From an uncultured Gammaproteobacteria bacterium (GTDB lineage Bacteria > Patescibacteriota > Patescibacteriia > UBA9934): a stretch of 64,000 bases of DNA. The notes under the pieces are model-generated. The model saw nothing but the letters and a program-made list of their open reading frames with translations. It searched no databases and was not told the origin of the DNA. The first letter of the stretch is position 1. The number at the start of each line of letters is the position of its first letter. Shown piece by piece: positions 17,867 through 62,520 of the stretch. The stretch is taken from contig CAYJQH010000002.1 in the NCBI GenBank assembly GCA_964372415.1, positions 21,803 to 85,802 of the forward strand, given 5' to 3'. The position numbers were made by a program, and so were the translations under genes.

Positions 17867-18787
17867 CTAGTCTGTCATTAGTCGCTCTTTGGTCATAACC
17901 GGGAGCGCAAATTTTCGAGTCAGCTGAGTTAAAAGAAGCGGCGGAACATCAATCTTGGACATGTCATTTGTCCCTGTGCCGCGCCCCGACAAGGCCTCAA
18001 GATAACCAATGTCATGAGGATCAAAACCCATGAGCGTGGCCGCTACGGCATCGGCGGCAACTGGATCAGTACTCGCCAACACTACTCCCATTGAGACCGG
18101 CGTGCCATCAACTGGGCCATCACCTTCCATGCCCAGGATACCATCAATAACTACCAAATCGCAGGGTAAATGTTTAAAAAGCTGAGCAATGAGCTCATTG
18201 GCTGCTGCCAGTCCATAAGCGTTGAGCCAGGGAGCCCGAGACCAAACCCGTCCCTGAATACCTACCCGTGAGGGCACAATCATCGTTGCCTCAGACCACG
18301 AACTGATAGCGAGTGACGCCCCATAAACATGATGGGTCTTAAGAGGCGCGACGGCAATTCGTAAATCACAATCACGCACCAATCGTGGCCGACGAACCGC
18401 GACAGTTCGACCTTCAACCAGATATGATTCCTCGTAAATATCTTCGTCGTTCAAGTCGACGAGTGAAAGATTGACGTACTGCGTGATTAAGCCTTCATAG
18501 CCAAAATTTCTAAAACTAGCCTTAGTGCCGTAATGCGCCCCGTCGGCGATCACAATAGGAACATCGGTATATACCCGAATCTGATCCAAGACTCCCCGTA
18601 CCGCGTCAACGTGGGTTGAGGCAAGTTGCAGTTCATGATGCGTTAGGTTGGGCTGAATTAGAATCTGCTTGGCGGATCTAAAACGAGCCACAGCCTCATT
18701 GCCAAGCTCATCGATTGCCTGGCGCACAGCTTTTCGACGATGTTCGTTCTGGATCAAGGCAACCTTCTGCATAGCTGGCCTGAGCAT
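17867..18787 (-). CDS. DUF362 domain protein
   Basis: 306 aa with the GILGMEGDGPVDG motif characteristic of DUF362. Confidence 0.5.
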   Translation of the reverse strand: MLRPAMQKVALIQNEHRRKAVRQAIDELGNEAVARFRSAKQILIQPNLTHHELQLASTHVDAVRGVLDQIRVYTDVPIVIADGAHYGTKASFRNFGYEGLITQYVNLSLVDLNDEDIYEESYLVEGRTVAVRRPRLVRDCDLRIAVAPLKTHHVYGASLAISSWSEATMIVPSRVGIQGRVWSRAPWLNAYGLAAANELIAQLFKHLPCDLVVIDGILGMEGDGPVDGTPVSMGVVLASTDPVAADAVAATLMGFDPHDIGYLEALSGRGTGTNDMSKIDVPPLLLTQLTRKFALPVMTKERLMTD

Positions 18788-18815
18788 ACACAGGCTACCT
18801 TAGAGAGGCAATGAG

Positions 18816-20051
18816 TTATTCGTAACGCAAAGCTTCAATTGGACTTTTCCGGGAAGCGCGTAGCGCTGGGTAAAGCCCAAAAACAATACCAGTAATAGCC
18901 GCTACGACAAGCGCTGCCCCGGCGGCTGAAGAGGGAAAAATATAAGTCCACTCCATATTGATTATTGAGCTTAAAATCTTCGATGCCAAAAACGACAATC
19001 CTGATCCGAAAATTATCCCTATTAGGCCGCCAAGAGTTGTGAGTAATAAAGCTTCAAAAAGAAACTGCAAAAGAATGTCTCTGTTTCTGGCTCCGAGTGC
19101 TTTACGCAAGCCTATCTCTTTGGTCCGTTCAGTGACAGCCACCAGCATAATATTCATAATGCCAATACCACCGACTACGAGAGAAATCGCCGCAATCGCC
19201 GAAAGAAAAACGGTCAAAATGTTGGTTACGCTAGCTACTTGTTTGGCTGCATCAGCTTGGGAAGTAACATGAAAATCGTCGTTTATAGGATCGTCAATAG
19301 AATGTTCCCGACGGAGGGTGCTTAGAATTTCCTCCTTAGCGAGCGGTACAGCTTCTTCACTTATGGCCTGAGTAATAATCATGTTGTAGTGATCAATGTC
19401 CACCATATCCTGAGCGGTGGTGTAAGGGATGAGCACCATGAAATCGACTTCGAAGAGACCAAAAAAACCCTTCTTATCAAACGTGCCAATAACTTCAAAT
19501 TCTTCGTTCTGTATCTCAATCGTCTGCCCAACTGGATCTTGGTTCGGGAATAATTCCTGACGCACCTCAAACCCAAGTACCGCAACTTTACGCTTAGAAG
19601 AGACATCTTCCTCCCTTAGCAAGCGACCGGTGGAGAGTGAGACACCAAAAACCGAGGCAAAATTTTCCGTTGAACCGGTAGTACTCGCTTCGGCCGAAAA
19701 CTTGTCAATCATCACCCGGCCAGGAACAAAAACAACAGGGGCTAAATCAACCAAATTTGGTGCGTTTGCTTTATCACTCAACACCTCAAGATCACTGTTT
19801 TTAAGAGAATTAGACAAAAGGGACACAAGATCAGAAGGCGTTTCGGGCATCGGTCCTGGCTCAATAATAATCGTGCCGAGGCCAAGCCCTTGAATTTGAC
19901 CCAAAATCAAATTCTCGGCCCCCTGCCCCACGGACTGGATGAGGGTGATTGAGGTCACGCCAATAACAATGCCAAGAATCGTGAGCGCAGAACGCGTGGC
20001 GTGGGCCCAAAGGCCCGACAAGGCGGTCTTGAAAGCGTGAGATATTTTCAT
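18816..20051 (-). CDS. ABC transporter permease, MacB/FtsX-like
   Basis: N-terminal TM helix, large periplasmic domain, and a C-terminal FtsX-like 3-TM module; 411 aa. Confidence 0.8.
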   Translation of the reverse strand: MKISHAFKTALSGLWAHATRSALTILGIVIGVTSITLIQSVGQGAENLILGQIQGLGLGTIIIEPGPMPETPSDLVSLLSNSLKNSDLEVLSDKANAPNLVDLAPVVFVPGRVMIDKFSAEASTTGSTENFASVFGVSLSTGRLLREEDVSSKRKVAVLGFEVRQELFPNQDPVGQTIEIQNEEFEVIGTFDKKGFFGLFEVDFMVLIPYTTAQDMVDIDHYNMIITQAISEEAVPLAKEEILSTLRREHSIDDPINDDFHVTSQADAAKQVASVTNILTVFLSAIAAISLVVGGIGIMNIMLVAVTERTKEIGLRKALGARNRDILLQFLFEALLLTTLGGLIGIIFGSGLSFLASKILSSIINMEWTYIFPSSAAGAALVVAAITGIVFGLYPALRASRKSPIEALRYE

Positions 20052-21054: not shown

Positions 21055-21169
21055 AGTTTCGTCAGTTACGAGGAGGAGACGAGTAAGGGCGAGGCGTACT
21101 GATAAGTACGGTGAGTCCGACGGAGTCGACGACGAAGTAAATGGCGAAACTTGGATACGTTTTCTATAC
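21055..21169 (+). ncRNA. Conserved tRNA-abutting element, copy 1 (candidate structured leader or ncRNA)
   Basis: Shares the blocks CGAGGAG…GAGGCGTAC-loop-GTACGGTGA…CCGGAGTCG…ACTTGGATA…TAC with 34156-34307 and 26277-26369, and ends exactly at the tRNA-Gln 5' end. The hairpin stem covaries between copies (GTACT/AGTAC versus GTAGT/ACTAC). Confidence 0.5.
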
Positions 21170-21243
21170 TCCGGGATCGTCTAAGGGCAGGACAGCGGCC
21201 TTTGAAGCCGTGAATCTTGGTTCGAATCCAAGTCCCGGAACCA
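21170..21243 (+). tRNA. tRNA-Gln (anticodon TTG), CCA encoded
   Basis: Manual cloverleaf: acceptor TCCGGGA/TCCCGGA, anticodon loop CTTTGAA, T-arm CTTGG-TTCGAAT-CCAAG. Confidence 0.85.
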
Positions 21244-21246
21244 AAA

Positions 21247-21280
21247 AACCTCGACACAATTTCGAGGTTTTTTGTTTTTG
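21247..21280 (+). terminator. Rho-independent terminator after tRNA-Gln
   Basis: Hairpin AACCTCGACACAATTTCGAGGTT followed by TTTTTGTTTTT. Confidence 0.7.
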
Positions 21281-21417
21281 AGTTTAAGAATTTAGTATTC
21301 GAGACGAGTTTGGGTGAATGGGGAAGATTTTTCCGAAGCGTAGTTCATGCTACGGTGAGGAAAAATCGGGGCCCCATGAGGCCAAAATTGGCCGAATAAT
21401 AAATTCTCCAAAAAGAA

Positions 21418-21455
21418 GCGCCCCGGCCAGTCTGACGACTGGTCGGGGCACGTGA
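21418..21455 (-). terminator. Rho-independent terminator of the 519-aa gene
   Basis: GC hairpin CCCCGGCCAGTC…GACTGGTCGGGG, followed on the minus strand by a TTCTTTTT run. Confidence 0.6.
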
Positions 21456-21465
21456 CGGTGACCGG

Positions 21466-23025
21466 TTAGAGGTCGTCGAGATCGTTCGACATGTCCTCGA
21501 CCGGCACGGCTTCGTCTTCGACGAAGTCAACCGAGGTGGCCATGGTCCGCCGGATGGCGGTCTCCACAGCCTCGGCGATCTCCTCGTTTGAGAGCAGGGA
21601 CGGACGCTGCGGGTGCGACAGCGACCCGTTCAGCAACATGCCCGCCTCGACGAAGAAATACCAGTGCTGCGCCGGCTCCGGCAGATCTCGGCCGGCCGCC
21701 TCGCCATTATGGAAGTTGTCGATGATCCGCCGAACGTCAGACACGAGGTCAGCATGATCGATCCTGACCTCGGACCAACCGGCGCGTCGGGCCTCGGCGA
21801 GAGCGATCTCCTCGGCGATCTCCCAGATCTGCTGCTTGTTGTCATCGGACGTGAAGACGCTCACGTTGCCGCTCGATCGACGGATGACGACCACCTGAGC
21901 CTGATGCACGCTCCGAAGCCACGAGCTCATCTTTCGGAGATTCGTCTCGGCGAAGGCCACTCGCACCCCAGAAATCTGGCGCAAGAGGCCGTTATTTTCC
22001 TGGAAGGATTGTGCGCATTCCTCTTGAAACTCGCGAGCACTCGCCAAGTAGCAGTTGAAGATCTTGAAGACCTTCCGGCCAAGCTCCTCCGGGGACATCT
22101 TGCCCCAAATGTTCAAAGCCGTGACCACGGAGTCGAGCTCGAACGGCAACTGCTTGCGGTCCGGCTCGCGGTACCGCTTGAGCTCCCTTAGAAGGTAGCG
22201 CAAGAGCTTGGCCTCACGATCCTCCACCCTCTTGAAGTTGAGGCCAAAGAACTTGGCCACCTCGTCCGCCGTCGTGGACGGCGGAAAGTGTCCGCCTTCA
22301 ATATCCACGAAGATGGTTCGCGGATTCTCCAGGTACTCTCTCAGGGTTTCCGCGTCCGCGTAGACGAGCTGCGGCTCGTTCAGATACCGCCCGACGATCC
22401 AAGCCTTGGCCAATCCATTCAAGGTGGCGTAGGCCGGAACCACGATAGTCGGTCGACGGAGCTTGCGCATGGCTTCGGCCGTCATCGGCTCGGAAGCCGT
22501 AGACAGAGCGAGGGGCACAGTGAGCGGTCGCGCCATGGGCTGACAGCTCGCGCCATAAAGATGCGCATTGACCACGGCCTCGATCCAGTTGAAGACCCAC
22601 AAGTCGTCGACCTTCTGGTCCTTGCCCCACCATTCGAGCGTCTTGACCACCTCCCCCCATTCGAGGCGAGTTTGTCCGGACACTGCACCCTGGTCATCCT
22701 TGCGCGTGTCAGCGCGGCGAATTTCCGAAAGCAGCGTCTTGTACTCGGATCTGTCGAACAGTCCAAGTTCCTTGGCGGTCAGAGTGGCGGCGCACTCGCC
22801 GGGCAATCGGCCATCCAGCCGGTGCTCGTCAAACATTCCGCCACCAATGCCGATCAGGGCCACCGTGGAGTCACCAAGAAAGGTGCGCTTGGCGCGCTCC
22901 TCATCCCAGAACTCCACCGTGGCTTCAGGATTGGCCCGGCGGATGAGCGCCGCGGCCACGTGCTCGTCGGCATGTGCCCCTCGGTGGGAAACGGCCAGCC
23001 TGAGCTTGAGCGGATCGAGAGCCAT
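21466..23025 (-). CDS. GC-rich hypothetical protein with an N-terminal MYG1/UPF0160-like metal-dependent hydrolase motif and an acidic C-terminal tail
   Basis: 519 aa. N-terminal VSHRGAHADEH…IGIGGGMFDEHR resembles the HxGxFHADE…GG.YD..HH pattern of the MYG1 family. AGGAG lies 8 nt upstream of the ATG. GC content is much higher than in the neighbouring genes. Confidence 0.45.
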   Translation of the reverse strand: MALDPLKLRLAVSHRGAHADEHVAAALIRRANPEATVEFWDEERAKRTFLGDSTVALIGIGGGMFDEHRLDGRLPGECAATLTAKELGLFDRSEYKTLLSEIRRADTRKDDQGAVSGQTRLEWGEVVKTLEWWGKDQKVDDLWVFNWIEAVVNAHLYGASCQPMARPLTVPLALSTASEPMTAEAMRKLRRPTIVVPAYATLNGLAKAWIVGRYLNEPQLVYADAETLREYLENPRTIFVDIEGGHFPPSTTADEVAKFFGLNFKRVEDREAKLLRYLLRELKRYREPDRKQLPFELDSVVTALNIWGKMSPEELGRKVFKIFNCYLASAREFQEECAQSFQENNGLLRQISGVRVAFAETNLRKMSSWLRSVHQAQVVVIRRSSGNVSVFTSDDNKQQIWEIAEEIALAEARRAGWSEVRIDHADLVSDVRRIIDNFHNGEAAGRDLPEPAQHWYFFVEAGMLLNGSLSHPQRPSLLSNEEIAEAVETAIRRTMATSVDFVEDEAVPVEDMSNDLDDL

Positions 23026-23144
23026 TTTTCACTCCTACTCTTGTATGTGATGCCGGCAGATTTCCGGCGGTGAATGAACAACGTGCCCAAGCTTGACACA
23101 AAACAGACCTTTTGTCAAGGTTTTTGGCCAACATTAGATATTTT

Positions 23145-24056
23145 TTACGTTTTTAGGTATTTTCGCATAGCCATCCAGGTGGTCACCATACTAAGGAGGG
23201 CCAGGAGTGCGAATTGAGAGCCAAAAATAAGTGGTGCTTGGACCCAAAAATAATCTGAAAGATTTATGTCTACGCCGCTAAAAAAGCGACTAATACTTGG
23301 CTCGAGCGTAGTGAGGACAAGGGCTACAAGGCCGGCTACTAGCACTGTGGCAGCAAAGCTGTAAAGCATGGCCTCAAGTAAGAAGGGTCCACGCACGAGC
23401 CAGTTTTTGGCGCCCACGAGCTTCATGACCGCGATTTCATCCCGATGAACGTAAATGGCCACGCGAATCGTATTGAAAACTATCAGCATGGCAATGAGCG
23501 CAAAAAAGGCGGCTAACCCAAAACCTCCCCAACGAACCTTTTCGGCAAAGTTCGACAACTTAGTAATCACTAACGCGTGATCGGCAAAATTTGTTTCTTT
23601 GATATAGGGTGTGAACTCAGGGCTTTGAACAGCCTCTAAAATAAATGGAAAATCCTCCGGGTCGTGAGCGGAAATAAGAAGCGAATCGCCAATTGGATTG
23701 CCACCCACTTCTTCTAGGGCGGCCAAAATTTCTGGGTCGTCAGCGTGGAGTCGTTTAAAATTCTCAAGTGATGCTTCGGCCTCAATGACGGATACGTCCC
23801 TGACTTGTGGGAGTCCTAAGAGATAGCCCCGAACCGCTGCTTGAATATCGTTACTAGTACCTTGATTAAAGAAAATCTCAACCTGCACGCTTTGCTCTAC
23901 CGAACGTATAGTTGTTTCGGCCAGCACATTTAAAATAAGAACGGCATTTATAGTAATGAGCGTAAGCAGCATCACTGTAGTTGTCACAAAAGACAACCAA
24001 AAATTACGCAAGGCACTTTGCAGAGCAAACTTCACCAAGCGCCACATTTCTTGCAT
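23145..24056 (-). CDS. ftsX: Cell division permease FtsX
   Basis: 303 aa with an N-terminal TM helix, periplasmic domain and C-terminal 3-TM FtsX module. Directly follows ftsE. Confidence 0.8.
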   Translation of the reverse strand: MQEMWRLVKFALQSALRNFWLSFVTTTVMLLTLITINAVLILNVLAETTIRSVEQSVQVEIFFNQGTSNDIQAAVRGYLLGLPQVRDVSVIEAEASLENFKRLHADDPEILAALEEVGGNPIGDSLLISAHDPEDFPFILEAVQSPEFTPYIKETNFADHALVITKLSNFAEKVRWGGFGLAAFFALIAMLIVFNTIRVAIYVHRDEIAVMKLVGAKNWLVRGPFLLEAMLYSFAATVLVAGLVALVLTTLEPSISRFFSGVDINLSDYFWVQAPLIFGSQFALLALLSMVTTWMAMRKYLKT

Positions 24057-24061
24057 AGGTA

Positions 24062-24904
24062 TTAACCAAGATGATAACGACCGTGTTCAGCATCAGCCAC
24101 AATCTTGCCGTCATTTAAAGTAATAACTCGCTTACGAAGCCCATTCACGATATCTCTGTCGTGAGTCACAAGAACGATAGTTGTTCCTACCTCGTGGATG
24201 CGTTTAAAGAGCTCAAGAATATCACGAGCCGTCAAGGTATCGAGGTTTCCTGTCGGCTCATCAGCTATGATGATCTTTGGCCTGTGCACCAAGGCACGGG
24301 CCACTGAGACGCGTTGTTGTTCACCACCAGAAAGCTGTCTTGGGTAACGATGCAATTTATCAGCTAAACCAACGATCTTCATGACTTGCGGCACCACCTG
24401 CCTGATACGGCTCGTTGCTGCTCCGGCAACTTCCAAAGCAAAAGCTACGTTTTCGTAAGCGGTTTTTTTGGGTAATAGTTTATAGTCCTGAAAAACCACA
24501 CCAATCTGACGACGTAAAATTGGTACTTCGTGATACCTGAGACGTGAAATATCCCAATCCCCAACCGAAATCTGCCCATGGGTTGGCTGTTCTTCCGCAA
24601 AAAGAAGTTTAGCTAAAGTTGTTTTTCCGGATCCGCTCGTACCAACAATCGACACGAACTCGCCAGGTTTAATATGAAAACTTACGCCATCCAAAGCGCG
24701 CGTGTCTGGTTGGTAGATTTTACTCACGTTTTTAAACGTAATCACTCGGGCAGTATAGCATGTACGACCGTTGACTAAAAATGAATTTTCAACTAGACTG
24801 GGGCGTCGTTTCTTGGAGGTAATGTTGGATAACGACTCAGAGATCATTCTCGTGAAAAGCAAGTTCGGAGACCGTGAGATCTCCCGGGAAAACGTGGATT
24901 CCAT
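24062..24904 (-). CDS. ftsE: Cell division ATP-binding protein FtsE
   Basis: GTSGSGKTTL…LSGGEQQRVSVAR…[11 protein letters not shown]. The first ~50 aa of the ORF are probably not translated. A GTG at 24745 (VITFKNVSKIY) is the likelier start. Confidence 0.8.
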   Translation of the reverse strand: MESTFSREISRSPNLLFTRMISESLSNITSKKRRPSLVENSFLVNGRTCYTARVITFKNVSKIYQPDTRALDGVSFHIKPGEFVSIVGTSGSGKTTLAKLLFAEEQPTHGQISVGDWDISRLRYHEVPILRRQIGVVFQDYKLLPKKTAYENVAFALEVAGAATSRIRQVVPQVMKIVGLADKLHRYPRQLSGGEQQRVSVARALVHRPKIIIADEPTGNLDTLTARDILELFKRIHEVGTTIVLVTHDRDIVNGLRKRVITLNDGKIVADAEHGRYHLG

Positions 24905-25976
24905 TCTGGATACGCGGATTTTCCGGATTGTCGGTAAGCGGGAGTGGGTGGTAAAGAGCGGTTTCTACGACCGGCCCTTCATCTGCTACAACCGCAGTCA
25001 AGATAGGCACCATGCCTACCAAAACCCGCACACCGCATTTCGAGCCACGGTTTACGCCGATGGCTTCGAGGGGTACGGCGCCGACGACATTCCGGAAGGC
25101 GACCTGCAAAAGCTCAAGGCCTGGCTCGAGCGTCACCGCTACCTGCAGCTCCTTGTGTCCGACGACATGATGCGCGGGCCGGAGCGGGCCATGTTCAACA
25201 GGCTGTGCATCGAGCTCGCGACCAAGATGGGTCGGCCGGTGAACGAGGTCAAACGCGAAATCCTGACTCAGACCATCATTGCCGCCACCCTTGAGGGTGA
25301 AGCGGCAGTCGAGAGCTTGGGCGAGACGATCGGGCTTGATCGGCGACGGATTGCAGAAATCACCGCCATCGGTCGAAACGTCAACTGGCACGGGGCCCTC
25401 ATCGTGCGTGAGATCAGAGAACAAGAAGATCTCATGACGGCCTGCGGCGCCGAGCTGAGCGCCCTTCTCGAAGCCCGTTCAACGCTCTTCGACGACGCGG
25501 CCAGACGCGAAAGTCACCTGAGGAACGTCAAAAACATCGCAACGCTCCTCGGCACGATCAAGGACCGCCCATGGCGAAGCCTGGCACAACGCGACATTCA
25601 GGACCTCGAACAGTACGTCGGCTATGGCTCAACGGGTGTCGAAGCCCTGATCCAGGCCGAACTCTTCCTCCGTCGACCGGTAGCCGCGCACAAGTGCTTC
25701 TACCTGTCGCGCCAGATCAACGTAGTGCTCTATCGGCTGGCCATGGCCGAAGCGAGACAAGGCAACATCCGCTCCGCTCTCCTTGATCGGGGCTACGCCG
25801 AACTCGTCGCCATTCGGGACTCCATCGATCCCGCGACGGGCGAAATCCTGCAGCGCAACCCGCTCTGGAGCGCCCTCGGTCGCATCAACGATGCGCTCCA
25901 TATCTGGCGTGCGAGCAGCAGCCACTTCGAGGACGTTCGCAACCTCCTCCGCCACGCCGCTGCCACGTTCGGCTAG
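24771..25976 (+). CDS. GC-rich hypothetical protein (401 aa), no recognisable domain
   Basis: Long ORF whose codon usage shifts to high GC after about 24880. Followed by a strong terminator. Its start overlaps the dubious N-terminal extension of ftsE on the other strand. Confidence 0.5.
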   Translation: MTKNEFSTRLGRRFLEVMLDNDSEIILVKSKFGDREISRENVDSILDTRIFRIVGKREWVVKSGFYDRPFICYNRSQDRHHAYQNPHTAFRATVYADGFEGYGADDIPEGDLQKLKAWLERHRYLQLLVSDDMMRGPERAMFNRLCIELATKMGRPVNEVKREILTQTIIAATLEGEAAVESLGETIGLDRRRIAEITAIGRNVNWHGALIVREIREQEDLMTACGAELSALLEARSTLFDDAARRESHLRNVKNIATLLGTIKDRPWRSLAQRDIQDLEQYVGYGSTGVEALIQAELFLRRPVAAHKCFYLSRQINVVLYRLAMAEARQGNIRSALLDRGYAELVAIRDSIDPATGEILQRNPLWSALGRINDALHIWRASSSHFEDVRNLLRHAAATFG

Positions 25977-25984
25977 GCATCTCC

Positions 25985-26017
25985 CGGCTCGGACCCCTTG
26001 GTCCGAGCTGCTTTTTA
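25985..26017 (+). terminator. Rho-independent terminator of the 401-aa gene
   Basis: GCTCGGACC-CCTT-GGTCCGAGC followed by TGCTTTTT. Confidence 0.7.
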
Positions 26018-26034
26018 TGTTCGACCTCCCCTCA

Positions 26035-26100
26035 CCCCTCCTTCTTAAGGAGGGGACTGCTCACTGTTTCACCCTTTATAAGGGGGAATGAAGGGGGTCG
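26035..26100. repeat. GC-rich palindromic hairpin element (CCCCTCCTTCTTAAGGAGGGG … CCCTTTATAAGGG … GGGGGAATGAAGGGGG)
   Basis: A near-identical CCCCCTCCATTTATGGAGGGGG…GGGGGTTGGGGGAGG element is found at 62405-62440. Both lie just beyond the terminator of a GC-rich gene. Confidence 0.6.
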
Positions 26101-26107
26101 AACACAA

Positions 26108-26135
26108 AAAGCACATGCCTTCTGGCACGTGCTTT
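26108..26135. terminator. Bidirectional terminator hairpin (GCACATGCC-TTCT-GGCACGTGC, A-run on one side, T-run on the other)
   Basis: Serves the plus-strand 401-aa gene region and the minus-strand tRNA-Thr. Confidence 0.6.
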
Positions 26136-26211
26136 TGGAGCCACTTCCGGGATTTGAACCCGGGACCTCTGCTTTACGAAAGCATTGCTCTACCGCTGAG
26201 CTAAAGTGGCC
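26136..26211 (-). tRNA. tRNA-Thr (anticodon CGT), CCA encoded
   Basis: Reverse complement is GGCCACTTTAGCTCAGCGGTAGAGC…TTCGTAA…GGTCCCGGGTTCAAATCCCGGAAGTGGCTCCA. Confidence 0.85.
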
Positions 26212-26230
26212 TAGAAAACGTATAACCAAA

Positions 26231-26259
26231 TTATCGACCATGAGAAAACTGATTTAAAC
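26231..26259 (-). promoter_or_regulatory. Candidate promoter of tRNA-Thr (TTTAAA-17-GATAAT on the minus strand)
   Basis: Read directly from the sequence. The promoter-proximal sequence TTGGTTATACGTTTTCTA resembles the 3' end of the tRNA-abutting element copies. Confidence 0.35.
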
Positions 26260-26276
26260 GGCCAAATACTAAAAAC

Positions 26277-26369
26277 AGCGAGGAGCGAAGTGAGGCGTAG
26301 TTAATACTACGGTGAACGAGCACCGGAGTCGCGACAACGCAGTTGGTTATTTGAATCAGTTTTTTGTAC
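26277..26369 (+). ncRNA. Conserved tRNA-abutting element, copy 3 (plus strand, ending at the 3' CCA end of the minus-strand tRNA-Gly)
   Basis: AGCGAGGAGCGAAGTGAGGCGTAGTTAATACTACGGTGAACGAGCACCGGAGTCGCGACAACG…TTGGTTA…TTTTTTGTAC. The hairpin carries compensatory changes relative to copies 1 and 2. Confidence 0.45.
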
Positions 26370-26444
26370 TGGAGCAGGAGACGGGACTCGAACCCGCGAC
26401 CCTTTGCTTGGGAAGCAAATGTTCTACCACTGAACTACTCCTGC
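26370..26444 (-). tRNA. tRNA-Gly (anticodon CCC), CCA encoded
   Basis: Reverse complement is GCAGGAGTAGTTCAGTGGTAGAAC…TTCCCAA…GGGTCGCGGGTTCGAGTCCCGTCTCCTGCTCCA. Confidence 0.85.
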
Positions 26445-26593
26445 GTTTTAAGCGCAAAATATATAGCACGATTTTACTATCCAGTCTAGACTAAGTCTCG
26501 GGTTTCTGCTAACCTTTAGCCGCATCGTGATCCCCATGATGCATCAAGCCAACCCTTTCCACTACAGCGCTCCCCGCGCTGAGCGGAGAGTCC

Positions 26594-27124
26594 ATGATCC
26601 TCGAAACCAGGGCGGTAATCCCCCGCCTTTCGCTCCAGTCGCGACTCCCCCGTGCAGCCAGCATCATCCGCCCCAAGCTGACCGATGATGGCAATCTGAT
26701 CTTGATCCTCAACCCCGAGGGTCTGATCCGCATCCATCTCCGCCGTGAGAACGTCGACAATCAGGCTCTCTACGAATGCCTGGTGGTCGACGAAGAAGGC
26801 CGGCCCCTCGAGCTCTTCTTCGGACGCGGCATCTGCGACGCACTCCTCAACGCCTGTGCCCACCTCGTGGAACACGGCGCCGTCATCCTCCCCGTGAGCG
26901 ACGAAGTGCGCGGCAAGTACATCTCGAACGAACGGCATCACAAGTCGGTCCGCCTGAACTTCGACGACACGAAGGACCTGTCCGTCATCGAGGTGATCCG
27001 GCTCCGACTCAACACCTACGAGGTCAAGATCTTCGACGAGCCGCTCCCGGGATTCTTCTCGAACCCCGTGCTCGGCGTCATCGGGGGCCTGTATTACCTC
27101 AAGGCGAAGGGCTACCTCATGTAG
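26594..27124 (+). CDS. GC-rich hypothetical protein (176 aa)
   Basis: ATG preceded by GGAGAG. GC-rich codon usage. Followed by a nested GC hairpin and T-run terminator. The antisense ORF (26516..27169) has an Asp/Glu/Gly/Val-rich composition typical of an artefact. Confidence 0.5.
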   Translation: MILETRAVIPRLSLQSRLPRAASIIRPKLTDDGNLILILNPEGLIRIHLRRENVDNQALYECLVVDEEGRPLELFFGRGICDALLNACAHLVEHGAVILPVSDEVRGKYISNERHHKSVRLNFDDTKDLSVIEVIRLRLNTYEVKIFDEPLPGFFSNPVLGVIGGLYYLKAKGYLM

Positions 27125-27140
27125 CGCCGACTCGTTCCCC

Positions 27141-27190
27141 TCCCGCACTCCCTGGCTCCCCCGAGCCATGGCGTGCGGGAATCTTTTTTT
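27141..27190 (+). terminator. Rho-independent terminator (CCCGCAC…GGCTCCCCCGAGCC…GTGCGGG followed by TCTTTTTTT)
   Basis: Read directly from the sequence. Confidence 0.65.
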
Positions 27191-61651: not shown

Positions 61652-62362
61652 TTAGGAATTTTCACATTGCGTTTTAGCCGACGCAATATCTTGTTTTATG
61701 GCCTCATTGTCGGGTGGCAGTAAATCCTTGGCCACCTCATAGTGATCTAGTGCCCTATCGCAGTCATCGTGAGTCAAATACCATGTGGCGAGTTCGGTCA
61801 TAAACCACGGTGTTTGGCCAACACGGTCGACGCCATCTTCAAGCACTATCTTTACCTCGTCTTCTCGCGAACCGTCAGGGGGGTTATTCCGAATAGCCAT
61901 TACTAAGTCGCGATAAAACTCCTCTGTTGGATCAAGTTCAACAGCCTTGGCAAACGCCGCTTCGGCTTTGCTGTAATCCTCCATCCGAGTCAAAATTTCG
62001 CCGTAAAAATTCCAGGCTGACATGTTAATAGCGTTGAGCGTTAAGTATTCCTCAATGGTCTCGCGCGCGAGCACCAGGTCACCAAGCATAGAAGCATTCC
62101 AGGCGATTGAGGTAAACAAATCCCAGTCAACATCCTGAATGTCCATGGTGGCTTTTTGAGCTACCAAGGCCGACTGAGCTATATCGAGTTGCTGCTCATA
62201 ATACGCCCGTTCCGAATCGGTCATTTGCGCGTAATCGTCAGTTAGCACCAGACCGCGATAAGCGTAAGCGTCGGAATTAAAGTACCAAACCGCAAAGACC
62301 CCAAGAACCACCATCAATACGACGGCAATACCGGCAATAAAAACATTTCTAGAAAACGTCAT
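61652..62362 (-). CDS. Membrane-anchored TPR-repeat protein
   Basis: I prefer the start MTFSRNVFIAGIAVVLMVV at 62362. The ORF-track start at 62446 would run through the upstream terminator hairpins. Confidence 0.55.
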   Translation of the reverse strand: MTFSRNVFIAGIAVVLMVVLGVFAVWYFNSDAYAYRGLVLTDDYAQMTDSERAYYEQQLDIAQSALVAQKATMDIQDVDWDLFTSIAWNASMLGDLVLARETIEEYLTLNAINMSAWNFYGEILTRMEDYSKAEAAFAKAVELDPTEEFYRDLVMAIRNNPPDGSREDEVKIVLEDGVDRVGQTPWFMTELATWYLTHDDCDRALDHYEVAKDLLPPDNEAIKQDIASAKTQCENS

Positions 62363-62404
62363 ACGCCAAGTATGGTAAGTGATGCAGACTAAAAGTGCAA
62401 TGCT

Positions 62405-62476
62405 CCCCCTCCATTTATGGAGGGGGTTGGGGGAGGTTAAAACCAAACACCCCGGCCCTTGCGAGCACGGGGTGTT
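62405..62476 (-). terminator. GC hairpin element (CCCCCTCCATTTATGGAGGGGG) plus a rho-independent terminator (ACACCCCG…CGGGGTGT, then a T-run on the minus strand)
   Basis: Lies just 3' of the GC-rich surface-protein gene. The first hairpin is a near-copy of the one at 26035. Confidence 0.6.
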
Positions 62477-62520
62477 TGTTGCTCCCGGAGCTTGCGCCCC
62501 GAGTCAGGTAACCGCCGTCA

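What the first reader, a model, noticed from the sequence alone, without database searches (positions are those of the whole stretch)
26035..26100. Shared GC-rich palindromic element at the 3' ends of two separate GC-rich segments
CCCCTCCTTCTTAAGGAGGGG … CCCTTTATAAGGG … GGGGGAATGAAGGGGG (26035-26100) and CCCCCTCCATTTATGGAGGGGG…GGGGGTTGGGGGAGG (62405-62440) are clearly related. Each lies immediately beyond the terminator of a GC-rich gene, 40 kb apart and on opposite strands.

The two elements may mark the ends of related mobile or acquired units (att or terminal repeats). They could also be a common 3'-UTR structure, or G-rich sequences able to form G-quadruplexes.
Basis: seen in the sequence. 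Interest (0 to 1): 0.55.

Follow-up and report, generated by a model that had tools for sequence, protein, structure and literature searches.

The report
Triplex-forming GC hairpin repeats (BoxC-like)
The two GC-rich palindromes are real, related copies of a known, widespread bacterial repeat (a hairpin plus a mirror-image G-run that can fold one DNA strand into a triple helix); they are sporadic about 30-base insertions after terminators, not the edges of acquired gene islands.

Summary
Both sites carry the same 31-32-nt architecture: pyrimidine arm, loop, purine arm, 2-3 nt, then a G-run that mirrors the purine arm. The copies are 62405-62436 on + and 26024-26055 on -. This pattern occurs 2 times against 0.00 expected.

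The layout is that of a class II purine-motif intrastrand triplex. This repeat is published as BoxC, PIT elements or TM/TMECO (PMC4666352). Site 1 is an inverted doublet, with a second, degenerate unit at 26068-26097, inside a 105-nt palindrome. Such doublets are also described for E. coli.

In contigs fetched from metagenomes, variant units with other arm sequences keep the mirror rule (44 perfect mirror, 5 perfect direct). A is mirrored by A or T about equally.

The island-boundary reading fails:
- The flanking genes are syntenic in related Patescibacteria that lack the motif.
- A third GC-rich gene has no motif.
- The element behaves as a discrete indel of about 30 nt, once in frame inside a gene.

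This is a new member of a known kind, with no established function. New here are its presence in a Patescibacteria (CPR) genome and in IMG/VR viral contigs.

The parts
25987..26019 (+). Intrinsic terminator of the GC-rich gene 24822-25976: stem GCTCGGACC/GGTCCGAGC followed by TGCTTTTTATG. Its T-tract overlaps the left arm of the palindrome.
26009..26113 (.). 105-nt palindromic doublet. Outer arms are 26009-29 and 26093-113 (21 nt, 90% complementary), enclosing units A and B in inverted orientation.
   Evidence: I1. RNA fold z = -6.8 and -8.5. DNA fold -34.8 and -34.2 kcal/mol, z = -10.3 and -8.8.
26024..26055 (-). Unit A, a class II triplex motif read on the - strand: Y CCCCTCCT, loop TAAGA, R AGGAGGGG, loop TGA, third strand GGGGAGGT. 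All 8 triplets are perfect. The Watson-Crick stem is 9 bp (26035-43 with 26047-55).
26068..26097 (+). Unit B, a degenerate class II unit on the + strand: Y TTCACCC, loop TTTATAA, R GGGGGAA, loop TG, third strand AAGGGGG. The mirror is perfect over 7 nt, with one Watson-Crick mismatch (A26071). There is an inner hairpin CCCTT-TAT-AAGGG.
   Evidence: (mirror plus hairpin detector). Coordinates read.
26107..26136 (-). Terminator hairpin of the tRNA-Gly/tRNA-Thr transcription unit, convergent with the gene terminator. Its T-tract overlaps the right arm of the palindrome.
   Evidence: I2; tRNA-Thr at 26136-26210 on -.
62405..62436 (+). Site 2 unit, a class II triplex motif on the + strand: Y CCCCCTCC, loop ATTTAT, R GGAGGGGG, loop TT, third strand GGGGGAGG. 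All 8 triplets are perfect. The Watson-Crick stem is 10 bp (62405-14 with 62417-26).
62444..62478 (-). Intrinsic terminator of the surface-protein gene (62521 to beyond 64000, on -): an 11-bp stem followed by GTTTT, immediately upstream of the site 2 unit on that strand.
62363..62400 (-). Short stretch between the unit and the ATG (62362) of the TPR gene. It contains a possible -35/-10 pair, TTGCAC-N17-TACCAT. The unit therefore sits between a terminator and the next gene's likely promoter.
   Evidence: Read from the sequence; this is inference. The consensus scan did not call a promoter here.

Best explanation
These are copies of a short G/C-rich interspersed repeat of the 'intrastrand triplex motif' class, published as BoxC, PIT elements and TM/TMECO.

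One DNA strand reads pyrimidine arm, loop, purine arm, 2-3 nt, G-rich run. The first two blocks form a Watson-Crick hairpin. The third block is the mirror image of the purine arm, so it can lie antiparallel in the hairpin's major groove through reverse-Hoogsteen G*G-C and A/T*A-T triplets. This is a class II purine-motif triplex. It would form when that strand is single-stranded, during replication, repair or transcription.

Site 1 is an inverted doublet that can alternatively form a 105-nt hairpin or cruciform.

The units are not tied to the neighbouring genes. They are gained or lost as discrete blocks of about 30 nt in tolerated spots, here between a terminator and the next feature. Their likeliest effect is a local obstacle to DNA polymerase and a local hotspot of instability, not gene regulation.

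Shown here: the architecture, its non-randomness, mirror-rule covariation in other genomes, unit-wise presence and absence, and synteny of the flanks.

Taken from the literature: triplex folding of such oligonucleotides in vitro.

Inferred: formation in vivo, and any effect on replication or rearrangement.
For: Architecture and significance:
- Both window units meet the class II rule with perfect 8-nt triple stems. The direct-repeat control gave 0, and 100 Markov simulations gave 0 at stem length 7.
- The tool pattern gave 2 matches against 0.00 expected.

Covariation, tested on units not selected by my search pattern in the 120 fetched metagenome loci:
- 122 hairpin-strands had clearly asymmetric purine arms. 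Of these, 44 had a perfect mirror third strand and 5 a perfect direct copy.
- Examples: AAAGGGGGG to GGGGGGATT, GGGAGAAGGGGG to GGGGGGATGAGG, AAGGAGAGGG to GGGTGAGGTT.
- The third-strand base opposite A is T 36 times and A 32 times. That matches the reverse-Hoogsteen rule stated in PMC4666352.

Literature, all (PMC4666352):
- The same architecture is published.
- Triplex formation by the single strand was shown by CD and NMR.
- The elements are intergenic with no strand bias.
- Closely spaced inverted doublets are described.

The strict TMECO pattern was found in the same contigs as CCCCTCC-type units in L017, L064, L087 and L125. In L017 the two units lie adjacent.

Unit-wise indels:
- L140 keeps the gene, terminator and TPR arrangement but lacks the unit. 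Its terminator-to-ATG spacer is about 36 nt shorter.
- L009 has a 30-nt in-frame insertion, equal to one complete unit, in a gene whose 70%-identical ortholog in L011 lacks it.
- Relatives with the site 1 gene lack the motif.
Against: - Holder et al. could not detect the triplex in vivo by DMS footprinting. Double-stranded TMECO was ordinary duplex.
- Earlier work found no promoter, terminator or in-vivo polymerase effect. The biological consequence therefore remains unproven.
- The window units do not match the strict E. coli TMECO consensus.
- Only 2-3 copies are visible here, and the rest of the source genome was not available.
- Both units have the same orientation relative to the upstream gene, with the C-rich version in the mRNA sense just after a terminator. 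With n = 2-3 this could be chance, or it could hint at a transcript-level or insertion-site rule.
- The mechanism that creates or spreads the units is unknown.
Confidence: 0.75

Rival explanations
1. Boundary markers (att sites or terminal repeats) of horizontally acquired GC-rich gene cassettes.
For: Site 1 adjoins a 60% GC gene next to tRNA genes, and site 2 adjoins a 55% GC gene. The tRNA-Gly/tRNA-Thr pair beside site 1 is inverted relative to several relatives.
Against: - The flanking genes are syntenic in relatives without the motif.
- GC-rich homologs of 61-65% GC sit at the same position in L004 and L007.
- Two other GC-rich genes in the window lack the motif.
- There is no second boundary copy, no direct repeat and no tRNA-end duplication.
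- Pfam and NCBIfam found no integrase or any other family in the GC-rich genes.
- The motif is found in contigs of 26-74% GC.
Confidence: 0.03
2. A transcript-level element. The upstream gene's read-through RNA would carry CCUCCCC-N-CCCCUCC-loop-GGAGGGG. This is a stable hairpin, possibly a pyrimidine-motif (class IV) RNA triple helix, that protects the 3' end from exonucleases or acts as a back-up terminator, as REP elements do.
For: Both units, and unit B relative to the tRNA operon, lie directly after a terminator with the C-rich version in the sense strand. The hairpins are stable as RNA. PMC4666352 states that pyrimidine-type intrastrand triplexes can form in RNA. The core 7 triplets of both window units are compatible with C+*G-C and U*A-U.
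Against: - The units follow the U-tract, so most transcripts should end before them.
- No U-run follows the unit hairpins, so they are not terminators themselves.
- PIT elements showed no terminator or promoter activity.
- In about half of the variant units the third strand has T opposite A. This fits the DNA purine motif but gives A on the C-rich strand, which does not fit the pyrimidine motif.
- C+ triplets need acidic pH.
- E. coli elements show no orientation bias.
Confidence: 0.1
3. A G-quadruplex or G4-hairpin switch on the G-rich strand is the selected structure.
For: G-runs are clustered: GGAGGGGG TT GGGGGAGG and GGAGGGG TGA GGGGAGG. PMC8044849 shows that related archaeal repeats interconvert between triplex, hairpin and G4 with K+.
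Against: - Each window unit has only two runs of three or more G, so at best a two-tetrad G4 is possible.
- A G4 needs neither the complementary C-arm nor the mirror rule, and it does not explain A/T placement in the third run.
- A 9-10 bp G-C hairpin competes strongly.
Confidence: 0.07
4. A REP/REPIN- or MITE-like mobile element, moved in trans by a transposase. The mirror run would then be part of a protein recognition site rather than a triplex strand.
For: - Inverted doublet with 21-nt outer arms at site 1.
- Discrete unit-sized indels.
- Multi-copy contigs with conserved flanks, for example L177 with 6 copies and L196 with 5.
- Many copies in viral contigs.
Against: No other copy of the outer arms exists in 64 kb. 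No transposase was identified nearby. No target-site duplication is evident at the L009/L011 junction. Covariation follows a base-triplet chemistry rule across many different arm sequences, which sequence-specific protein recognition does not predict. TMECO was not associated with mobile elements in E. coli.
Confidence: 0.15

Closest known systems
G/C-rich class II intrastrand triplex motifs (ITxF 'TM' class; Holder et al. 2015, PMC4666352; PIT elements of Hoyne & Maher 2000/2002)
   Same: Same block order (Y, loop, R, loop, reverse-Hoogsteen G-run). Same triplet rule, stem length (8 nt) and loop lengths (2-6 nt). Also intergenic, over-represented against shuffles, occurring as inverted doublets, and patchily present among relatives.
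   Different: The arm sequence is CCCC(C)TCC / GGAGGGG(G) rather than CCCTCNCCC / GGGNGAGGG. The host is a Patescibacteria (Uhrbacteria-like) genome, with only 2-3 copies in 64 kb. Both copies sit immediately after terminators.
E. coli BoxC / TMECO sensu stricto
   Same: Same architecture and inverted type A plus type B doublets. TMECO-pattern units occur in the same metagenome contigs as CCCCTCC-type units and lie adjacent to one in L017.
   Different: The strict consensus has 0 matches in the window. TMECO has 9-nt stems and a 3-nt second loop.
Recurrent PQS plus C-tract repeats of Methanomicrobiaceae (PMC8044849)
   Same: An intergenic G-rich repeat with an adjacent complementary C-tract. 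It folds as an antiparallel triplex, hairpin or G4 in vitro.
   Different: The archaeal units have the C-tract 3' of the G-runs (a class I-like order) and four G3 runs. The window units are class II and have only two long G-runs.
REP/BIME/REPIN elements
   Same: Short GC-rich extragenic palindromes, often after convergent 3' ends, often as inverted doublets forming long hairpins.
   Different: REPs lack the mirror third run and are defined with a 5' GTAG and a cognate RAYT transposase. Neither is seen here.

Membership tests
Class II purine-motif intrastrand triplex motif (ITxF criteria, PMC4666352) | Homopyrimidine arm and homopurine arm forming a Watson-Crick hairpin, with a stem of 6-15 nt. 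| tested here: met
   8-nt all-pyrimidine/all-purine stems inside 9- and 10-bp hairpins.
Class II purine-motif intrastrand triplex motif (ITxF criteria, PMC4666352) | A third block 3' of the purine arm, antiparallel (mirror) to it, giving G*G-C and A*A-T or T*A-T triplets with at most one mismatch. | tested here: met
   Perfect 8 of 8 in both units: GGAGGGGG / GGGGGAGG and AGGAGGGG / GGGGAGGT. The direct-copy control gave 0. Unit B has one Watson-Crick mismatch.
Class II purine-motif intrastrand triplex motif (ITxF criteria, PMC4666352) | Both loops 1-6 nt long. | tested here: met
   Loops are 6 and 2 nt at site 2, and 5 and 3 nt in unit A.
Class II purine-motif intrastrand triplex motif (ITxF criteria, PMC4666352) | More frequent than in scrambled sequence. 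| tested here: met
   2 against 0.00-0.02 expected. 0 in 100 Markov simulations at stem length 7.
Class II purine-motif intrastrand triplex motif (ITxF criteria, PMC4666352) | The single strand actually folds into a triplex (CD/NMR). | not testable with these tools
   Shown only for the TMECO oligonucleotide in PMC4666352. ViennaRNA models only the hairpin.
BoxC / TMECO sensu stricto | Consensus CCCTCNCCC-N3-6-GGGNGAGGG-N3-GGGNGAGGG. | tested here: not met
   0 matches in the window. It is present in 4 fetched metagenome loci.
BoxC / TMECO sensu stricto | Intergenic location, with frequent closely spaced inverted doublets of two unit types. | tested here: met
   Both sites are intergenic. Site 1 is a doublet of two different units.
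Genomic-island att site / terminal repeat | Two repeat copies flank a segment that is absent as a block from related genomes, usually with an integrase and a tRNA-end duplication. | tested here: not met
   No flanking repeat was found. There is no integrase domain. The flanking genes are conserved in relatives without the motif.
Canonical G-quadruplex motif (G3+ N1-7)x4 | Four runs of at least 3 G within one strand. | tested here: not met
   Read directly from the sequence. Each unit has only two runs of 4-5 G plus two GG.
Intrinsic terminator | GC hairpin followed directly by a U/T run. | tested here: not met
   The unit hairpins are followed by ACTGCTC / TGAGGGG and by TTGGGGG / AGCATTG. The scans call only the neighbouring genes' own terminators.
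REP/REPIN (RAYT-associated) | A conserved 5' GTAG tetranucleotide, and a cognate RAYT (Y1 transposase) gene in the genome. | not tested
   No GTAG precedes the hairpins (sequence). The rest of the genome was not available and the window's ORFs were not all scanned.
Any Rfam RNA family | A match at or near the gathering score. | tested here: not met
   Only tRNAs pass. Sub-threshold hits are generic long-hairpin miRNA models.

The most novel reading that the evidence does not exclude
The roughly 30-nt triplex units are actively generated or mobilised as discrete cassettes by an unrecognised mechanism. Candidates are a structure-specific nuclease, transposase or polymerase template switch acting on the folded single strand. 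This mechanism would operate across bacteria, minimal-genome Patescibacteria and phages. It would insert units preferentially beside terminator hairpins and occasionally in frame inside genes, and would seed local inversions such as the flipped tRNA-Gly/tRNA-Thr pair next to site 1.
Probability: 0.1. Interest if true: 0.8.

Novelty: new member of a known kind. Interest (0 to 1): 0.35.

Why it matters
The biological role of this repeat class has been open since the 1990s. Triplex folding has been shown in vitro but not detected in vivo, and no function has been established (PMC4666352).

- The same architecture occurs in a reduced Patescibacteria genome.
- The exact CCTCCCC...CCCCTCC...GGAGGGG pattern occurs in at least 120 metagenome contigs spanning 26-74% GC, and in at least 120 IMG/VR viral contigs.
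- The unit appears and disappears as a clean block of about 30 nt, once in frame inside a conserved gene.

The mirror-rule covariation across many arm sequences argues that the three-stranded fold, or the process that writes it, is what is conserved.

For annotation, these elements should not be read as island borders, sRNAs or terminators.

Tried and rejected
- Rfam at gathering and at permissive thresholds gave only tRNAs and generic hairpin noise.
- BLAST of each element against the window found no further copies and no alignable similarity between the sites beyond 7-mers.
- GTTCGACC beside unit A looked like a tRNA T-arm remnant or att duplication. It does not match the neighbouring tRNAs, and no direct repeats were found.
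- An SD / anti-SD sequestering idea (CCUCCUU / AAGGAGG) was dropped. No start codon follows unit A, and the site 2 GGAGG is about 45 nt from the TPR start.
- The word-indexed protein search returned only the window's own protein for the GC-rich gene. This wrongly suggested an ORFan; tblastn on syntenic loci then found homologs of 31-35% identity.
- Exact-protein look-ups returned only short contigs of the same strain, with no polymorphism at the elements.
- My first two mirror-versus-direct tests were confounded by near-symmetric arms such as GGGAGGGG. The test was repeated on clearly asymmetric arms only.
- The rough ORF-overlap test shows depletion in ORFs, not exclusion: 41% against 82% background in metagenome contigs, and 61% against 83% in viral contigs. 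It overestimates 'inside ORF'.

Full report
**What is in the sequence**

The window is a chromosome fragment of a Patescibacteria (CPR) bacterium related to Candidatus Uhrbacteria. Its ftsX finds relatives of 50-78% identity in MAGs of that group. Genes in the window include ftsEX, Mur ligases, a PPIase and four tRNAs.

The quoted sequences are at the stated coordinates. Site 1 lies between two convergent terminators. One belongs to a 60% GC hypothetical gene (24822-25976, +). The other belongs to the tRNA-Gly/tRNA-Thr unit on the - strand. Site 2 lies on the - strand between the terminator of a large Ser/Thr/Asp-rich protein gene (62521 to beyond 64000) and the start of a TPR gene (61652-62362).

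CCCTCC-N2-12-GGAGGG occurs twice against 0.02 expected. No other copy exists in the window.

**The shared architecture**

BLAST does not align the two sites. Reading site 1 on + and site 2 on - gives the same layout: terminator, T-tract, ACC, TCCCC, N2-3, CCCC(C)TCC, loop, GGAGGGG(G).

The first C-run is the mirror image of the hairpin's pyrimidine arm. On the complementary G-rich strand the order is pyrimidine arm, loop, purine arm, 2-3 nt, then a G-run that mirrors the purine arm.

A purpose-written scan for this layout required all-pyrimidine and all-purine arms and a third block antiparallel with G opposite G and A or T opposite A. It finds perfect 8-nt triple stems at 62405-62436 (+) and 26024-26055 (-). 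A control asking for a direct copy instead of a mirror found nothing. None of 100 Markov simulations gave a hit at stem length 7. The tool's own pattern search gives 2 matches against 0.00 expected.

Site 1 also holds a second, degenerate unit on the + strand at 26068-26097: TTCACCC, loop, GGGGGAA, TG, AAGGGGG. It has a perfect mirror and one Watson-Crick mismatch. The two inverted units plus 21-nt outer arms make a 105-nt palindrome (26009-26113). It folds far better than shuffles, either as DNA or as RNA.

**Related sequences elsewhere**

A third instance turned up in relative L009 (18815-18847).

The contigs span 26-74% GC, and many carry closely spaced inverted pairs like site 1. A scan of IMG/VR viral contigs also hit its limit, with up to six copies per contig.

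The 120 metagenome loci contain 480 perfect hairpins with all-pyrimidine arms. Most of these have arm sequences other than the one I searched for.

On those unselected units I tested the mirror rule, using only clearly asymmetric purine arms. Of 122 hairpin-strands, 44 have a perfect mirror third run and 5 a perfect direct copy. Each hairpin is counted on both strands, so about half is the ceiling for a one-sided feature. The arms vary widely, for example:
- AAAGGGGGG to GGGGGGATT
- AGAGGAGGGGG to GGGGGTGGTG
- GGGAGAAGGGGG to GGGGGGATGAGG

Opposite an A in the purine arm, the third run carries T 36 times and A 32 times. G*G-C with A*A-T or T*A-T in antiparallel orientation is the rule of the purine (reverse-Hoogsteen) triplex motif, as set out in PMC4666352.

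**Comparison with what is known**

A literature search led to Holder et al. [quoted passage not shown] That paper describes the same block order as class II. It traces the E. coli example back to BoxC (1990s) and to the PIT elements of Hoyne and Maher. It gives the TMECO consensus CCCTCNCCC-N3-6-GGGNGAGGG-N3-GGGNGAGGG.

The paper reports that:
- the elements are always intergenic in E. coli, with no strand bias;
- five inverted doublets of two unit types occur;
- the single strand forms a triplex in vitro (CD, NMR);
- the triplex was not detected in vivo, and the double-stranded sequence is plain duplex;
- earlier work found no promoter or terminator activity;
- TM-bearing loci vary more between strains.

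PMC8044849 describes comparable archaeal repeats that interconvert between triplex, hairpin and G-quadruplex. BoxC is also listed among stem-loop repeat families in PMC2267715.

The window units meet every structural criterion of the class. These are block order, triplet rule, stem and loop lengths, over-representation, intergenic position and doublet formation. They do not match the strict TMECO consensus. TMECO-pattern units occur in the same contigs as CCCCTCC-type units in four metagenome loci, and the two lie adjacent in L017, so the two types belong together. I therefore file the finding as a new member of a known kind. It is a CCCCTCC-armed variant in a CPR genome, not BoxC sensu stricto.

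**The island-boundary idea**

This fails on several counts.
- The GC-rich gene at site 1 has homologs of 31-35% identity in the same place, divergent from ftsE, in L004, L007 and L012. In L007 it is followed by a plain terminator and then the tRNAs, with no motif. L004 likewise shows no motif.
- The homologs in L004 and L007 are themselves 61-64% GC against 46-47% for ftsEX. High GC is therefore a stable property of this gene family in this neighbourhood.
- Two further 61-62% GC genes in the window (21466-23025 and 26516-27169) have no motif.
- At site 2, relative L140 keeps the same upstream gene (its product ends ...LPVTGNSLVF, as in the window), a terminator and the TPR gene, but has no unit. 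Its terminator-to-ATG spacer is about 36 nt shorter.
- No flanking direct repeats exist, and the GC-rich genes carry no integrase domain.

**Behaviour as a discrete unit**

Besides the site 2 comparison, the L009 copy lies inside a conserved DUF362-like gene. The 70%-identical ortholog in L011 lacks exactly 30 nt (10 codons). That indel equals one complete unit, from pyrimidine arm to third run.

In 153.5 kb of related Patescibacteria loci this is the only unit. Presence is therefore patchy, as reported for E. coli strains.

A rough test in lower-GC contigs shows that units are depleted in long ORFs but not excluded from them. The figures are 41% against 82% background in metagenome contigs and 61% against 83% in viral contigs.

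**Most likely mechanism and its limits**

I conclude that these are short structure-defined repeats whose G-rich strand can fold into hairpin plus third strand when single-stranded. They sit where they do least harm. At site 2 that is between a terminator and what looks like the next gene's -35/-10 (TTGCAC-N17-TACCAT, my reading). At site 1 it is between two convergent terminators.

The covariation argues that the three-stranded fold, or the process that generates it, is conserved. It fits DNA better than RNA. According to PMC4666352 the purine motif does not form in RNA. The frequent T opposite A also makes the complementary C-rich strand a poor pyrimidine-motif former.

Not shown are folding in vivo, any effect on replication or recombination, and how units arise. 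Both window units have the C-rich version in the sense of the upstream gene, right after its terminator. With two or three cases this cannot be separated from chance, so a transcript-level role keeps some probability. A canonical G-quadruplex is not encoded, since each unit has only two long G-runs. A two-tetrad form in equilibrium is possible.

Site 1 sits at one edge of the tRNA-Gly/tRNA-Thr segment, whose orientation differs among relatives. This fits the reported link with rearrangement, but it is only a co-location.

**Verdict**

The feature is real and non-random, and the two copies are correctly linked. The attractive interpretation, island ends, is wrong. The element belongs to a published but functionally unexplained repeat class.

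Noticed in passing
window 21094-21114, 21338-21358, 26295-26315 (all +); also L005:9105-9124, L007:4923-4943, L010:9107-9127: A second small conserved hairpin motif, GCGTA-N-TACGGTGA, occurs 3 times in the window against 0.02 expected. It lies in the tRNA-Gly/tRNA-Thr spacer and on both sides of tRNA-Gln. The spacer copy is conserved in three relatives and sits inside a larger inverted repeat (26245-26265 / 26343-26363). It could be a processing signal or a small RNA. It has no Rfam match.
   Followed up: partly
window 26136-26444; L004, L005, L007, L009, L012 versus L008, L010: The tRNA-Gly/tRNA-Thr pair has opposite orientation relative to ftsE in different relatives. The window, L010 and L008 show one orientation; L004, L005, L007, L009 and L012 show the other. 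The segment has therefore inverted at least once. Site 1 lies at one edge of it.
   Followed up: partly
window 21466-23025 (-), 24822-25976 (+), 26516-27169 (-): Three hypothetical genes of 60-62% GC surround ftsEX (46% GC) and the tRNAs. None has a Pfam hit, and none has an NCBIfam or word-indexed homolog where tested. Yet two have fast-evolving homologs (31-45% identity), mostly GC-rich, at the same positions in relatives L004, L007 and L012. What keeps them GC-rich is unexplained.
   Followed up: partly
L009:18815-18847, inside ORF 18673-19485: One complete triplex unit is a 30-nt in-frame insertion (encoding ..SPPPRSGGGR..) in a conserved DUF362-like gene. The 70%-identical ortholog in L011 lacks it. 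In E. coli these elements were reported as strictly intergenic.
   Followed up: yes
L177 (6 copies, all on the - strand), L196 (5 copies), L160 (3 copies): IMG/VR viral contigs carry many copies of the same motif. In L177 each copy is preceded about 35-40 nt upstream by a conserved AAGGGGTGGTCCGC, which suggests a longer repeat unit. The E. coli study found no association with phages or plasmids.
   Followed up: no
L069 about 120-530; L121:2209-2508; L116:1690-1767: In some metagenome contigs the units form short tandem arrays with a period of about 45-95 nt, rather than singletons or inverted doublets.
   Followed up: no
L003 = window 21217-26185: An independent assembly of the same strain (sample ERR4904390) breaks its contig inside tRNA-Gln and inside tRNA-Thr. 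The block holding both GC-rich genes and ftsEX is thus bounded by assembly-graph branch points. This may only reflect tRNA conservation between co-occurring strains.
   Followed up: no
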